The position numbers were made by a program, and so were the translations under genes. A stretch of 64,000 nucleotides of DNA from Eledone cirrhosa (taxonomy: Eukaryota), in NCBI GenBank assembly GCA_964016885.1, contig OZ024740.1, forward strand, positions 225,742,001 to 225,806,000, read 5' to 3'. Of this stretch, positions 2,069-48,236 are shown piece by piece (position 1 is the first letter of the stretch; every line of letters starts with the position of its first letter). The notes under the pieces are model-generated. The model did not search any database. It saw only the letters and a program-made list of their open reading frames with translations, and was not told the DNA's origin.

Positions 2069-2201
2069 GAATTAGCCGTCGAAACGCCTTGAGCTCAGCC
2101 GTCGGGGTCCTACTCGTTCCTATTACCTACTCTATTACCCTAAGTATTGAGTAGTTTGGTGCGTTATGGTCCACCTGGTTCCTTACCACATTTCCTTCGT
2201 T
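2069..2201 (+). mobile_element. Short (TA)n-inserted element family H1 carrying the 3' half of a hammerhead
   Basis: GAATTAGCCGTC-GAAA-CGCCTTGAGCTCAGCCG-TC-GGGGTC ... CCACATTTCCTTCGTT. Related copies at 8215-8419, 15670-15867, 48036-48236. Confidence 0.75.
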
Positions 2202-2244
2202 ATATATATATATATATATAGGAAATATATATATATATGTATAT

Positions 2245-2731
2245 TCATTACGTGGTTTTGATTTTGCGTGTTATTGTTCTCCACGCTCCACATATGACGT
2301 ATTATCTTCGTTCTTTTCGTTCATTGCCAGAGAACGTCTCTATGAACCACCTAAGAGAACATTAGTCTACGACCTCTTTTATACCATAAACGTGGTTCTT
2401 TCTTTGCGCGTAATTGTTTTTCACCGCTCCTATTAATGACGTATTATATTCGTTTTTTCCCGTTCTTTGCCAGCGAATGTTTCCACGAACCAAAGTATCG
2501 TCTTCCTGTCTCCCTCCGGTTGCAACGTTTTTTGAAATATCGACTTCTGCGTTTACAGATTGACTTTGTTAGTTTCAGAAGATCCCGTTAAGGGTGAAAG
2601 CAGCGATTCTTTGCCTAAACTTTAATCTGTTATTTTAATAAATATTTGCTCTACGGTTCTTATATATTTGATATATATTTATCCTTATCGAGCCCTCTTT
2701 GGATTTTAATGTTCAAATTTATTATTATTAC
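2245..2731 (+). mobile_element. PLE-like non-coding 3' end with internal ~140-bp duplication and degenerate HHR
   Basis: Blocks near 2249 and 2390 are similar. HHR-like motif at 2571-2621. The 3' end recurs at 5582-5690. Confidence 0.6.
2571..2621 (+). ncRNA. Degenerate type I hammerhead
   Basis: AGTTT/AAACT stem I; CAGAAGA (mutated core); CCC/GGG stem II; GAAA; GCA/TGC stem III; cleavage site mutated. Confidence 0.45.
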
Positions 2732-2816
2732 TATATATATGTATATATATATAGGAAATGTATATATATAGGAAACATATATATATATATAGAGGAAATA
2801 TATATATATATATATG

Positions 2817-3204
2817 TATTACAAAATACACTATATATACATTCATATATATATCGCTATTTCAGAGCACCAATTCTAATTTTCAATTTCTGCTTGACCG
2901 GCAACCGCTCTGTATAACCAGTTCCTGATTATTACTAGAATTCTATAAGAATCAAACATTCATGATTTTCAGCGAACAGGAGGAGTAGTTAGCTTTGATA
3001 AGTACCTAAAAGTGCGAAACAGGGCCCTGTCAGCTTTATCTCCCCTGTTTGCTGAAAATTAAAGTAAGTGAGATTGTCACTACTCTAAAACAATAGCGTA
3101 AAGTCTTCGAAATGCTTTTAATTAAGCATAGAGTGTATTGCAAAATACACTATATATACATTGCTATATATATCGCTATTTCAGAGCGCCAATTCTAATT
3201 TTCA
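2817..3204 (+). mobile_element. Terminally redundant ~319-nt HHR element (retrozyme-like)
   Basis: Direct repeats at 2817-2885 and 3136-3204 flank a full HHR. Embedded in (TA)n. Confidence 0.75.
2965..3059 (+). ncRNA. Type I hammerhead with U3-A8 core variant and extended stem I
   Basis: AGCT TTGATAA GTAC CTAAAA GTGC GAAA CAGGGCCCTG TC AGCT (2991-3035). Distal stem I ATTTTCAGCGAACAGG / CCTGTTTGCTGAAAAT. Confidence 0.85.
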
Positions 3205-3323
3205 TATATATATATATATATACAAAATTTCAAGTTATCAATAATGTAGTGATAATATATCGTCACGTTAGAGATGAACAGCGTACGTGTAGGTTTGCTC
3301 AACGTGTATAAATTATATTCCGG

Positions 3324-5467
3324 AGATGAATATAAAATGAAAGTGCTTTTATAAATGAATTTATTAATTATTGACATATGTTTCTGTAACAGACGGAATA
3401 CCTATGTATCGCTGTTTGCGTAATCATATAATGTTAACAAGTATTCGATAGCAAATGTATAAATCAGTTGTTACTTCTTCAGAGATATTGGATAAATTGG
3501 AAAAAAATCAGAAAAATCAAAGTATTTATATTAGTTGTAAGAAAGGAAGAAGAGAAGGAATAGTATATGACAGATGGCAATTCAATTTGCTGGTAAACAA
3601 GTATATAGAAGGTTTTAATGAGAATACAGGATGCGTAAAAATATTAGAAAACTTTTTAAGGAACTAGGATTAAATATTACGTTTGAATATAACCTCAAAG
3701 AGGTTAATTTCCTCGATGTTACTTTGAATATCAATACAGAAACGATTAAACCGTTCCATAAACTAAATGAGAACCTTAAATATGTAAATACGGGTTCTAA
3801 CCATCCACCCTCTATAATTAAATCCATCCCTAGAAATATTTCCCTTCGAATCTCCCGCCTGTCGTCCAACCAGCAAACCTTCAAGGAACATGCCGAATAT
3901 TATGATGATGCACTTAGGAAGGTTGGACACCTAGATAATATAGAGTATATAGTCGAGGATCACCAAAACACCCAAAATAAATCTCAGAGAGGTAGAAATA
4001 GCATAGAATCACCACCATACATACATTACCGCAATAGACACACTAATAGTCGCACACAACCAAACAGAAGGCGATGTAAGGAGTATATATGGTACAACCC
4101 GGTCTATAACAACTCTATTAAAACCAAACTACCCTCACAATTCTTTCGATTAGTTAAAAAACATTTTCCAACATCACATAAATATAATAAAATCTTAAAC
4201 CCTAACACTATTCGACTTTCATATTCAACCATCCCTAATATTGAACAACATATAAAAAAGCTTAACGCAAAACGGTTGTATAAACGCCTTCCAACACATA
4301 ACAATACACGTAAAACATCGGCTATAACATCACAAAACAACAAACAACATCCCGTCCTGCCTAAGCAACCTCATCAACCCATCCATGGCAATACAACAAC
4401 GCATAATTATAACTGTAACTCTGTCCTACCAGGAATGTGTCCGTTGAACAATCAGTGTCTTGAACGCAACATCATATTCAAATGTACTATCGAATCGGGT
4501 TGCCAGAAGTGGTACTATGTGGGGTCTACAGCTACCTCCTTCAAATCTCGCCTTTATAGACATCATTACTCGATAAAACATGAAAACCAGCGTTATGTAA
4601 CAACACTCGCAGACAAGGCTTGGCAGCTGCGCGAAAAAAACCAACAGTTTTACCTAAAATGGGATATAATAGCATTGCCCCTTCATATTCCAAGGACAGG
4701 AATTTTGTAAATTGGTGTAATATGGAAATATTTTGTATTATGAAATCCAAAAATATTTTATTAAATAACAGAATAGAGCGATCGTTATACTGTAACCATC
4801 GCTTGAAATCTACATTTTCATATTACAAAGGCTACCAGGATTGAACGCATGTCTCTATCTCCGTTTGATTGTCAAAATACATATTAACATTCTCTATTAG
4901 TCTTAAATCTATCAACTCTTCTATCCTTTACCGTTTAATATAAACTGCTATAAATAAAATGAGATTTCTTAATTCAATTCCCTAATGCATATACCAGCAG
5001 GCTACCAGCATTGTTGTTATACAGTAACAGTGAAAACCTCTCTCTCTTCCTTACTGGACACTTTATATCTGTATTCAAAACGATCAGCCCTGTCCATTGT
5101 TCAATTGGTCAAATATAGATTAAAATAGGCACTCACAAAAATTCTTATTTAGATAAGATAAGCCATATACTCATTGCATTCTCATTAAAAACCTTCTATA
5201 TACTTGTTTACCAGCAAATTGAATTGCCATTTGTCATATACTATCCCATCTCTTCTTCCTTTCTTACAACTAATAGAAATACTTAAATTTTTCTGATTTT
5301 TTCCAATTTATCCAATATCTCTGAAGAAGTGACAATTTGCTATCGAATACTTGCTAACATTATATGATTACGCAAGCAGCGATACATAGGTATTCCGTCT
5401 GTTACAGAAACATATGTCAATACCTAATAAATTCCTTTATAAAAGCACTTTCATTTTCTATTCATCT
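3324..5467 (+). mobile_element. 5'-truncated Penelope-like element with inverted pseudo-LTR
   Basis: 3324-3625 is the diverged reverse complement of 5178-5467. The two arms enclose the RT-thumb/EN ORF. Confidence 0.88.
3631..4844 (+). pseudogene. PLE RT C-terminus/thumb + GIY-YIG endonuclease (frameshift near 4670)
   Basis: NFLDVTL, SNHPP, WYNP, LSYS, CPLNNQC, IIF..YYVGST..FKSRLYRH. The end continues in ORF 4620-4844 (SYS..WCNME..LLNNR..CNH). Confidence 0.88.
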
Positions 5468-5581
5468 TTTCTCTCTCTCTCTATATATATAGGCAATATA
5501 TATATATATATATATATATATATATATATATATAGGAAATATATATACATATATATAGGAAATATATATATATATATATAT

Positions 5582-46780: not shown

Positions 46781-46994
46781 CTGTGTATATGTGTATATGT
46801 ATACATAGTGTGTGTATATATATATTGTTCTCATTGCTGACGTATTATCTTCGCTATTTTCCGTTTCAATTTAAATTGATAAAAGGAAATTTTCGGTATT
46901 TTTCTCTGTGACGTATCCGAATGCCAGAAACTGTATAGATTGTACGTTTGTGACGTAACAATACTGTTTTGTTTGGTACACATATACAATGATA

Positions 46995-47135
46995 TCATCA
47001 TCATCATCATAATTATCAACCACTATCATAGAGCCCCCTGGATGCCTTCTGAAATTACTCCACACTGTCATGTCCTTCGCAATTCTGATCGCCTTCCAGG
47101 AACTATATTTGTAATTGCGATGGCGTTCCATCTTG
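46995..47135 (-). mobile_element. LINE (RTE-like) 3' end fragment
   Basis: Minus translation ..WKAIRIAKDMTVWS.. followed by a (GAT)n tail. Confidence 0.4.
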
Positions 47136-47146
47136 TATATGCCTGT

Positions 47147-47873
47147 CATGTGTATATATCTGTTATGTGTATATATCTGTTATATGTATATATCTGTTAT
47201 GTGTATATATCTGTTATGTGTATATATCTGTTATATACACATAACAGATTTATACACATAACAGATATATACATATAACAGATATATACACATAACAGAT
47301 ATATACATATAACAATATACATAACAGATATATACACATAACAGACATATACACATGTGTATATCTGTTATATGTATATATCTGTTATGTGTATAATTCT
47401 GTTATGTGTATATATATCTGTTATGTGTATAAATCTGTTATGTGTATATATCTGTTCTATGTATATATCTGTTGTATGTATGTATCTGTTATGTGTATAT
47501 ATCTGTTATGTGTATATATCTGTTATATACACATGACAGATTTATACACATAACAGATATATACACATAACAGATATATACACATAGCAGATATATACAC
47601 ATAACAGATATATACACATAACAGATATATACATAAAACAGAATATACATAACAGATATATACACATAACAGAGATATACACATGTGTATATCTGTTATG
47701 TGTATATATCTGTTATATGTATATATCTGTTATGTGTATTTATCTGTTATATGTATATATCGGTTATGTGTGTATATCTGCTATGTGTATACATATGTTA
47801 TATGTATATGTATGTAATATATATATATATGTTATATGTATATATCTGATATATATCTGTTATGTGTATATAT
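47147..47873. repeat. 17-bp minisatellite (TATATCTGTTATGTGTA) in alternating orientation blocks
   Basis: Orientation switches at about 47235, 47355, 47527 and 47683. Confidence 0.88.
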
Positions 47874-47903
47874 CTGATGAAGGACTAGCGTCCGAAACGT
47901 TAA
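47874..47903 (+). ncRNA. Minimal hammerhead core at the start of a short element (to ~47993)
   Basis: CTGATGA A GGAC TAGC GTCC GAAA CGTT. The 5' strand of stem I is replaced by minisatellite. Confidence 0.7.
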
Positions 47904-48035
47904 GAACATATTCCTGCTATATCAAGCGTTAACCTAATATATCCCTTCCATATACTGTACCGATTGTGTTGTTATTTCTGTTTACCTTTTACATACATAT
48001 ATATATATATATATATATATATATATATATATATA

Positions 48036-48236
48036 TAGGAACAAGTAAGACCCCGACGGCTGAGCTCAAGCCGTTTCGACGGCTAATTCGACGGCTAAGT
48101 CCAGAATTAGCCGTCGAAACGGCTTGAGCTCAGCCGTCGGGGTCTTACTTGTTCCTATTACCCACTCTACTACCCTAAGTATTGAGTACTTTGGTGCGTT
48201 ATGGTCCACCTGGTTCCTTACCACATTTCCTTCGTT
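48036..48236 (+). mobile_element. H1 element with 5' fold-back inversion
   Basis: Inverted arm 48036-48089, then GACGGCTAA GTCCAGAA TTAGCCGTC GAAA CGGC..GCCG TC GGGG. Confidence 0.85.

What the first reader, a model, noticed from the sequence alone, without database searches (positions are those of the whole stretch)
2069..48236. H1 family: copies are 5'-truncated or folded back at hammerhead stem II
Seen: four copies (2069, 8215, 15670, 48036) retain GAAA-stem III-GUC-GGGGTC, but none has CUGANGA. In the three close copies the sense strand begins at the stem II base (48090) or in its loop (15806, 2069). Three of the four copies have an inverted duplicate upstream. Inference: the RT stalls in, or the cDNA self-primes at, the strong GACGGCTAA/TTAGCCGTC hairpin, producing PLE-type inversions and ribozyme-dead copies. 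Alternatively the catalytic strand is supplied in trans.
Basis: partly seen in the sequence, partly recalled or inferred. Interest (0 to 1): 0.72.

Follow-up and report, generated by a model that had tools for sequence, protein, structure and literature searches.

The report
Penelope stubs start inside hammerhead loop
These repeats are short, mostly head-to-head stubs of a very abundant Penelope-type jumping gene; they lack the ribozyme's catalytic box because they begin in the middle of a variant hammerhead-shaped motif that the full-length element carries whole, likely at the spot where the element's RNA starts rather than where copying stalled at a hairpin.

Summary
The four copies are real. 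They are stubs of a Hydra-clade Penelope-like retrotransposon with 22,312 exact tail ends in (TA)n. The proposed stem II (GACGGCTAA/TTAGCCGTC) is not in the parent: it is a junction insertion copied from the inverted arm (62 matches versus 18,307 arms; 0 of 90 sampled copies). Full-length parents carry a whole hammerhead-shaped motif, but with a UUGANAA (U3-A8) core 43 nt upstream and a different stem II with a long loop. 5' ends pile up in a 12-nt window inside that loop (51 of 90 long arms, 49 of 63 inverted arms), not at the stem base (1 of 153) or the cut site (2 of 153). Best reading (0.65): reverse transcription starts at two fixed sites (+61, +140) from both cut target strands and runs off the RNA's 5' end, probably a transcription start; the two cDNAs are end-joined. 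The start site is inferred; no RNA data were available. Inverted arms with a one-sided tail are published PLE features. The scan has already noted the start-site reading in this genome and in others.

The parts
2069..2202 (+). Copy 1: sense arm, element positions +7..+140, ending at the tail site TTCGTTA in (TA)n
2066..2071 (-). Copy 1: possible 6-nt inverted arm (TAGGAA = +55..+60) overlapping the sense arm by GAA; may instead be one of the local TA-GGAAA microsatellite units
   Evidence: ambiguous
8210..8272 (-). Copy 2 (older sister family B): inverted short arm, about +1..+60
8273..8287 (.). Copy 2: 15-nt junction filler
8288..8421 (+). Copy 2: diverged long arm, about +9 to the tail
   Evidence: (84% identical to copy 4)
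15669..15804 (-). Copy 3: long arm, +5..+140
15806..15868 (+). Copy 3: short arm, +2..about +64, after one inserted C at 15805
48035..48089 (-). Copy 4: inverted short arm, +7..+61
48090..48097 (-).
48098..48237 (+). Copy 4: long arm, +1..+140; defines the numbering (+1 = A of AGTCCAG)
48105..48144 (+). 3' half of the hammerhead-shaped motif in copy 4: stem II 3' strand (+8..+18), GAAA (+19..+22), stem III with palindromic GAGCTC loop, GUC (predicted cut after +41), stem I 3' strand GGGGT

Best explanation
The copies are short head-to-head insertion products of a Hydra-clade Penelope-like retrotransposon, and they likely record the first 140 nt of the element's mRNA, whose 5' end likely lies inside loop II of the element's variant hammerhead motif. 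Shown: parent structure pLTR-ORF-3'UTR-pLTR; (TA)n target; two fixed 3' ends (+61, +140); a 5' pile-up at -4..+8; a parent motif ACCCC-YUGANAA-G..CGGCUAUUU-[loop]-AAUUAGCCG.C-GAAA-stem III-GUC-GGGGU. Inferred: the protein nicks both strands of (TA)n and starts reverse transcription internally at the two sites, one on each strand (twin priming); in the leader copy of these sites the RT runs off the RNA's 5' end after 61 or 140 nt; the two cDNA ends are joined blunt, by microhomology or with short insertions. Inferred: the 5' end is a Pol II start at an initiator-like T(T/C)AGT. An mRNA starting there would hold only half a ribozyme at its 5' end, so the stubs were never whole ribozymes. Long and tandem copies would come from priming in the downstream pLTR of uncut RNA.
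For: Parent and clade. Pile-up: 51 of 90 long arms and 49 of 63 inverted arms end at -4..+8; only 2 of 90 end at -5..-16; p = 4e-30 against uniform for 51 of 83. 56 of 63 inverted arms end at +61. Junctions: 12 overlap, 10 blunt, 13 with insertion of 35. Signs of a physical RNA end: T-runs upstream of +1 (A-tailed cDNA; L188, L193; L027) and jumps from -3/+2 into ORF sequence (L207, L263). 5 of 30 ORF-linked leaders start at -3..+7, so the RNA with this end continues into the ORF. Twin priming: 11 of 59 asymmetric insertions; in L072 the +61 arm is about 4.6 kb and the +140 arm about 440 nt. Sister family B has an otherwise different loop, keeps T(T/C)AGT, and its stubs start at the same motif (seen by eye in L010, L112, L224, L229, L232). 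In vitro, the Anolis PLE extends both strands, starts internally at two sites and uses uncut RNA (PMC11167929).
Against: No transcript or cap data, so the start site is untested. The TATA-like TATTTAAATA 29 nt before +1 is present in family A but absent in family B. The conserved (T/C)AGTTC could instead pair with upstream GGAC(T/U) as a loop II tertiary helix (by eye). The pile-up is 12 nt wide and overlaps the 3' arm of a weak inner hairpin (-3..+5 in the L022 fold). Both arms share subfamily letters in 40 of 46 insertions (shuffled mean 12), which fits fold-back equally well. Four of 10 blunt junctions are perfect palindromes. The sample is the first 90 of 22,312 matches along one contig, and BLAST ends are accurate to a few nt.
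Confidence: 0.65

Rival explanations
1. RT stalls at a structure in loop II of the folded hammerhead (the apical hairpin or a loop II pseudoknot) on longer read-through RNA; the two stalled cDNAs are then joined. This is a corrected form of the first reader's stall idea.
For: The L022 fold puts an inner hairpin at about -21..+5. Family B has a GC-rich inner hairpin ending at about -4. A stall also makes a cliff.
Against: The much stronger stems II and III leave almost no ends (1 of 153 at +16..+19). The inner hairpins of A and B differ in sequence and position while the ends track the same motif. A-tails and template jumps fit a true RNA end better (recalled from R2-type RT behaviour, not from a call).
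Confidence: 0.15
2. The RNA 5' end is real but made by processing (a host nuclease or another cut in loop II), not by transcription initiation.
For: It explains run-off signs without needing a TATA box, which family B lacks.
Against: The hammerhead's own predicted cut (+41/+42) is elsewhere and has only 2 of 153 ends. Splicing is unlikely: many copies keep -4..+2, and no common upstream exon was seen in 90 copies.
Confidence: 0.1
3. One cDNA folds back and self-primes (first reader; also the reading of Arkhipova et al. 2013 for Adineta palindromes), and the second arm is a copy of the first.
For: Arms are concordant in 40 of 46 insertions. Some junctions are perfect palindromes.
Against: In 11 of 59 insertions the +61 arm holds sequence the other arm lacks, and the +61 arm can never template +62..+140. 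Either end can carry the multi-kb arm. 23 of 35 junctions have no overlap. The named hairpin is not in the parent.
Confidence: 0.08
4. The stubs are working half-ribozymes whose catalytic strand is supplied in trans.
For: The 3' half and the palindromic GAGCTC loop are conserved in families A and B; PLE hammerheads are thought to work as dimers (PMC4209133).
Against: The parent supplies the strand in cis. No separate strand was found by the two patterns searched. Conservation is explained by descent from the parent.
Confidence: 0.02

Closest known systems
Hydra clade of C-terminal EN+ Penelope-like elements (Craig et al. 2021, PMC8557442; passages, section 11, supplement part 2 and search hits seen)
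   Same: DKT motif, RWR for RWK, CxCX5C linker, CxxC and CxH around the conserved E and N, C-terminal GIY-YIG-type domain, (TA)n target, inverted 5'-truncated copy, one-sided tail.
   Different: Unit about 3.5 kb with a 1.2-kb 3' UTR (described as generally under 3 kb). Tail about 80 nt (30-40 described). The Hydra hammerheads listed in the part of File S2 that I read all have CUGANGA cores and 3-10 nt loop II; this family has U3-A8 or C3/A8 and a 33-40 nt loop. Three family motifs were not found in that supplement.
PAc (Poseidon, Anolis carolinensis) in vitro mechanism (Frangieh et al. 2024, PMC11167929; parts 1-2 of 4 read)
   Same: Two internal RT start sites bounding the tail, both target strands extended, AT-rich target, uncut RNA as template.
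   Different: Different clade. The sites are 79 nt apart here and lie in the 5' leader, not in the ORF. The parts read do not discuss a 5' run-off hotspot or how head-to-head stubs form.
U3-A8 minimal hammerheads of Schistosoma mansoni Cercyon PLEs (Cervera and de la Pena 2014, PMC4209133; parts 1-2 of 4 read)
   Same: U3-A8 core pair, type I order, palindromic loop III, pairs of motifs on opposite strands from truncated PLEs.
   Different: Here stem III is a full 5-6 bp, loop II is long, and most copies begin inside it.
Adineta vaga Penelope pLTRs (Arkhipova et al. 2013, PMC3846280; passages) and D. virilis Penelope promoter (Schostak et al. 2008, PMC2377424; passages)
   Same: Promoter within the pLTR; TATA plus Inr-like motifs noted in Adineta; head-to-head palindromes.
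   Different: The 2013 paper reads the palindromes as self-priming on an antisense template; the asymmetric arms here favour twin priming on sense RNA.

Membership tests
Hydra-clade PLE | Single ORF with RT and C-terminal GIY-YIG endonuclease, flanked by pLTRs | tested here: met
   L072, L074, L075, L076 layout; 801-aa stop-to-stop frame in L074. Pfam gave no hit on two fragments; the domains were read from motifs and from likeness by eye to the published Hydra alignment.
Hydra-clade PLE | DKT in place of DKG; RWK motif | tested here: met
   HSDKTGN and LRWRTFF (R for K)
Hydra-clade PLE | CxCX5C linker; CxxC and CxH flanking E and N; no CCHH | tested here: met
   CNCADRSSC; CNLCSEE..LLNKKDELVTACKH. 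Absence of CCHH judged by eye.
Hydra-clade PLE | Insertion into (TA)n | tested here: met
   22,312 exact tail ends followed by TA versus 379 followed by the ORF-side sequence
Hydra-clade PLE | Canonical CUGANGA hammerhead in the pLTR | tested here: not met
   No CUGANGA at the motif in 4 of 4 units; 0 of the first 100 of 5,336 family A cores have G8. A variant core is present; 2 of 100 listed family B cores are canonical. I treat this as a deviation in an accessory feature, the clade being defined on the protein.
Hydra-clade PLE | Placement in the RT phylogeny | not tested
   No tree built; 616 unnamed homologs at 37-55% identity among the 120 listed
Type I hammerhead ribozyme | Core nucleotides with a 3-8 pair, GAAA, A15.1-U16.1, NUH | tested here: met
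   First 100 of 5,336: U3-A8 76, C3/A8 mismatch 24; U4 and A8 100 of 100; position 7 free (G 78, T 12, A 10), counted by eye
Type I hammerhead ribozyme | Stems I-III with covariation | tested here: inconclusive
   88.6% of cells paired; two stem II pairs change on both sides between families A and B, each about one event (15 hand-picked rows). RNAalifold did not recover the fold. The MFE fold gives the three-way junction for L022 but not for L033, L173 or L255.
Type I hammerhead ribozyme | Self-cleavage after GUC | not testable with these tools
   Indirect test: 2 of 153 arm ends at +41..+43, not above background
Type-SGC permuted hammerhead (Eckert 2023) | Block order site, GAAA, CUGANGA | tested here: not met
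   The order in the parent is core, GAAA, site (type I)
Animal non-LTR retrozyme | Tandem non-coding units each with a complete hammerhead | tested here: not met
   Stubs are single head-to-head half motifs of a coding parent

The most novel reading that the evidence does not exclude
The element's promoter sits inside loop II of its own ribozyme, so the start site splits the hammerhead: the mRNA's 5' copy is half a ribozyme and cannot cut, while the 3' copy is whole. Cutting there would remove both downstream RT start sites (+61, +140) and leave only the leader sites, turning the RNA into a template for 140-nt strong-stop-like stubs. The weak U3-A8 or C3/A8 core would then set the ratio of full-length copies to tens of thousands of stubs, and the genome would be a readable record of PLE start sites and of two-strand priming on sense RNA.
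Probability: 0.3. Interest if true: 0.7.

Novelty: new variant of a known kind. Interest (0 to 1): 0.4.

Why it matters
How PLEs make head-to-head inversions, and what their hammerheads do, are stated as open in PMC3846280, PMC8557442 and PMC11167929. A family with over 20,000 young insertions, two fixed priming ends and one sharp 5' edge gives a countable test of twin priming against self-priming and predicts a start site to within about 6 nt. It also shows that descriptors requiring CUGANGA and a short loop II miss PLE hammerheads. The insertion layout and the U3-A8 pair are already published, and this scan has reported the start-site reading elsewhere, which limits the surprise.

Tried and rejected
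Rfam scan of the window: the 150 listed of 441 matches were microsatellite-driven miRNA hits below threshold, with no hammerhead among them. The repeat finder was swamped by (TA)n. I first called the parent Neptune and concluded that its hammerhead core was lost, because my scans required G8; both readings were wrong and were corrected. I briefly read 342 of 18,307 as the share of long copies; that pattern covers only the TCAGT subfamily, and 12 of the first 30 arms are long. One search (CUGANGA within 8-22 nt of GAAA) gave 50 matches that look like chance junctions or other families. A splice acceptor at TTTTCATT(T/C)AG was rejected. The SGC permutation was rejected. A random 200 kb held too few copies to use (two insertions plus three fragments). 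Literature searches showed no paper tying PLE 5' breakpoints to a start site inside a hammerhead loop; most subscription papers are not searched, and supplements other than that of PMC8557442 were not read. PMC3884650 was seen as a listing only; 10.64898/2026.07.22.740005 as part 1 of 5.
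Full report
Observation. The four copies are in the window as described. Each sits in (TA)n and carries GAAA, stem III, GUC and GGGGTC without CUGANGA. I number the element from the A of AGTCCAG (window 48098 = +1). Copy 4 is an inverted arm +7..+61 (48035-48089), an 8-nt insertion GACGGCTA (48090-48097) and a sense arm +1..+140. Copy 3 has the same layout on the other strand (+5..+140 and +2..+64). Copy 1 is +7..+140 with at most a 6-nt inverted piece. Copy 2 is an older member of a sister family (B).

The family. The window lies in G000, 3.0 Gb; the host was not identified. 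A 23-mer starting at +1 has 18,307 exact matches and the tail end followed by TA has 22,312; reversed controls gave 0. Two of the first 30 hits (L024, L025) extended upstream and led to long copies and whole units of pLTR, ORF, 1.2-kb 3' UTR and pLTR (L072, L074, L075, L076). The protein has DKT, RWR, CxCX5C and CxxC/CxH around the conserved E and N, the Hydra-clade diagnostics in section 11 of PMC8557442. I had first written Neptune; an earlier finding pointed to Hydra, and I checked it. No tree was built.

In 30 of 30 long copies the sequence before +1 is GCTATTTAAATACCAGAATAAATTTTCATT(C/T) or a close variant, without GACGGCTAA. GACGGCTAA is the reverse complement of +10..+18 and belongs to the inverted arm. 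The junction GACGGCTAAGTCC has 62 exact matches and occurs in 0 of 90 tail-anchored copies. Similar arm-templated insertions occur at other junctions (L172, L210). The predicted CTGANGA before GACGGCTAA has 13 matches; the 10 viewed are not family hammerheads. A pattern with stem I added gave 3 matches, not read in context.

The real hammerhead. My scans required G8 and found no core in the parent. Earlier findings suggested a U3-A8 core, and it is there at -43..-37: ACCCC, then UUGANAA, G, CGGCUAUUU, a 33-40 nt loop, AAUUAGCCG, C, GAAA, stem III, GUC, GGGGU. The core pattern has 5,336 matches. In the first 100 listed, by eye, 76 are U3-A8, 24 are C3/A8, none has G8, U4 is invariant and position 7 is free. 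Family B has the same layout (132 matches), with a few U3-G8 and two canonical C3-G8 cores among the 100 listed. On 15 hand-picked rows the three stems are 88.6% paired, with two stem II pairs changed on both sides between A and B. Against this, RNAalifold did not recover the fold, and only 1 of 4 single-sequence folds gave the junction. U3-A8 is published for Schistosoma PLEs (PMC4209133). Cleavage is untested.

Breakpoints. I took the first 90 of the 22,312 tail matches along contig C1. 51 of 90 long arms begin at -4..+8, 2 at -5..-12, 5 beyond -16, and 32 are scattered over +9..+120. 63 of 90 have an adjacent inverted arm; 49 of these begin at -4..+8 and 56 end at +61. Of 153 arm ends, 100 are in the hotspot, 1 at the base of stem II, 2 at the predicted cut site and 0 at the 5' strand of stem II. 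So the copies begin in loop II, after the RT has passed stems I, III and the 3' strand of II. Of 35 junctions with both arms in the hotspot, 12 overlap by 1-4 nt, 10 are blunt and 13 have 1-10 nt inserted. Some ends carry T-runs (A-tailed cDNA) or join -3/+2 directly to ORF sequence (L188, L193, L207, L263). Of the first 30 of 379 ORF-linked leaders, 5 begin at -3..+7, 17 extend beyond -40, 6 begin further downstream, 2 did not align and none begins at +42.

How the two arms arise. The arms share subfamily letters in 40 of 46 insertions (shuffled mean 12), so they come from one RNA or one source; this does not separate fold-back from twin priming. Asymmetry does: in 11 of 59 insertions the +61 arm holds 15 nt or more that the +140 arm lacks, and in L072 and L075 the multi-kb arm is the one ending at +61. 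L076 ends at +140 on both sides. Both ends offer TAT homology to the (TA)n primer. This matches the in vitro results of Frangieh et al. (both strands extended, two internal start sites, uncut RNA used).

Mechanism. Most likely (0.65) the stubs are run-off copies of the mRNA leader, primed on both target strands at +61 and +140 and end-joined. The RNA end is inferred to be a start site: an initiator-like T(T/C)AGT is the main loop II sequence shared by A and B, stubs of both families start there, and family A has a TATA-like box 29 nt upstream. Family B lacks that box, and the motif could be kept as a tertiary contact, so stalling in loop II (0.15) and processing (0.10) stay open. Fold-back (0.08) and a trans ribozyme (0.02) are unlikely. 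Initiator and TATA consensus, hammerhead numbering and R2-type end behaviour are recalled, not from calls.

Comparison and novelty. Inverted truncated arms, the one-sided tail, (TA)n targeting and pLTR promoters are described (PMC8557442, PMC3846280, PMC2377424; passages). Six literature searches showed no paper placing PLE breakpoints at a start site inside a hammerhead loop. The scan's own unreviewed notes report that reading in this genome and two others; these are not independent support.

Noticed in passing
window 1750-2070, 2217-2790, 5530-6345, 7300-8215: Microsatellite arrays of (TA)n broken by GGAAA units, nearly all on one strand (35 TATAGGAA on +, 2 on -). TATAGGAAATATA occurs 29 times in the window and 0 times in about 0.99 Mb of other fetched DNA. 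The unit equals the start of a short arm; it may be an abortive priming event amplified by local slippage.
   Followed up: partly
window 613, 7217, 30347, 35741, 41779, 47874, 59032, 63539 (+ and - strands as listed): CUGANGA motifs with hammerhead-like neighbourhoods from other repeat families; those at 613, 41779 and 47874 recur in fetched loci (10, 9 and 4 copies).
   Followed up: partly
window about 560-720 and 41720-41900; L071, L115, L152, L104, L131: Two repeat families begin sharply at (A)AAATGGCGT or AGATGGCGT about 45-55 nt before their CUGANGA core, next to (CA)n or (TAAA)n; the motif resembles a YY1-type start-site element (recalled).
   Followed up: no
G000:C1:91476608-91487254 and C1:437200356-437210968: Head-to-tail arrays of four units spaced about 3.53-3.54 kb apart; candidate source loci and read-through templates.
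   Followed up: no
L074:2568-4139 (-): A second, different Hydra-like RT-endonuclease ORF (523 aa) lies next to the family A element.
   Followed up: no
L261, L262, L263, L266, L271: Arms that start at the +1 hotspot and have their first TA run 149-960 nt beyond the tail, suggesting further RT start sites inside the ORF's 5' part.
   Followed up: partly
window 23060-23144: GC-rich near-perfect hairpin with a TA centre (seen in the Rfam alignment); not examined.
   Followed up: no
L022:1283-1402, L095: The youngest subfamily (arms often 100% identical to reference) has a C-to-T change in stem III that keeps a G-U pair, and its parent folds into the hammerhead junction without constraints.
   Followed up: partly
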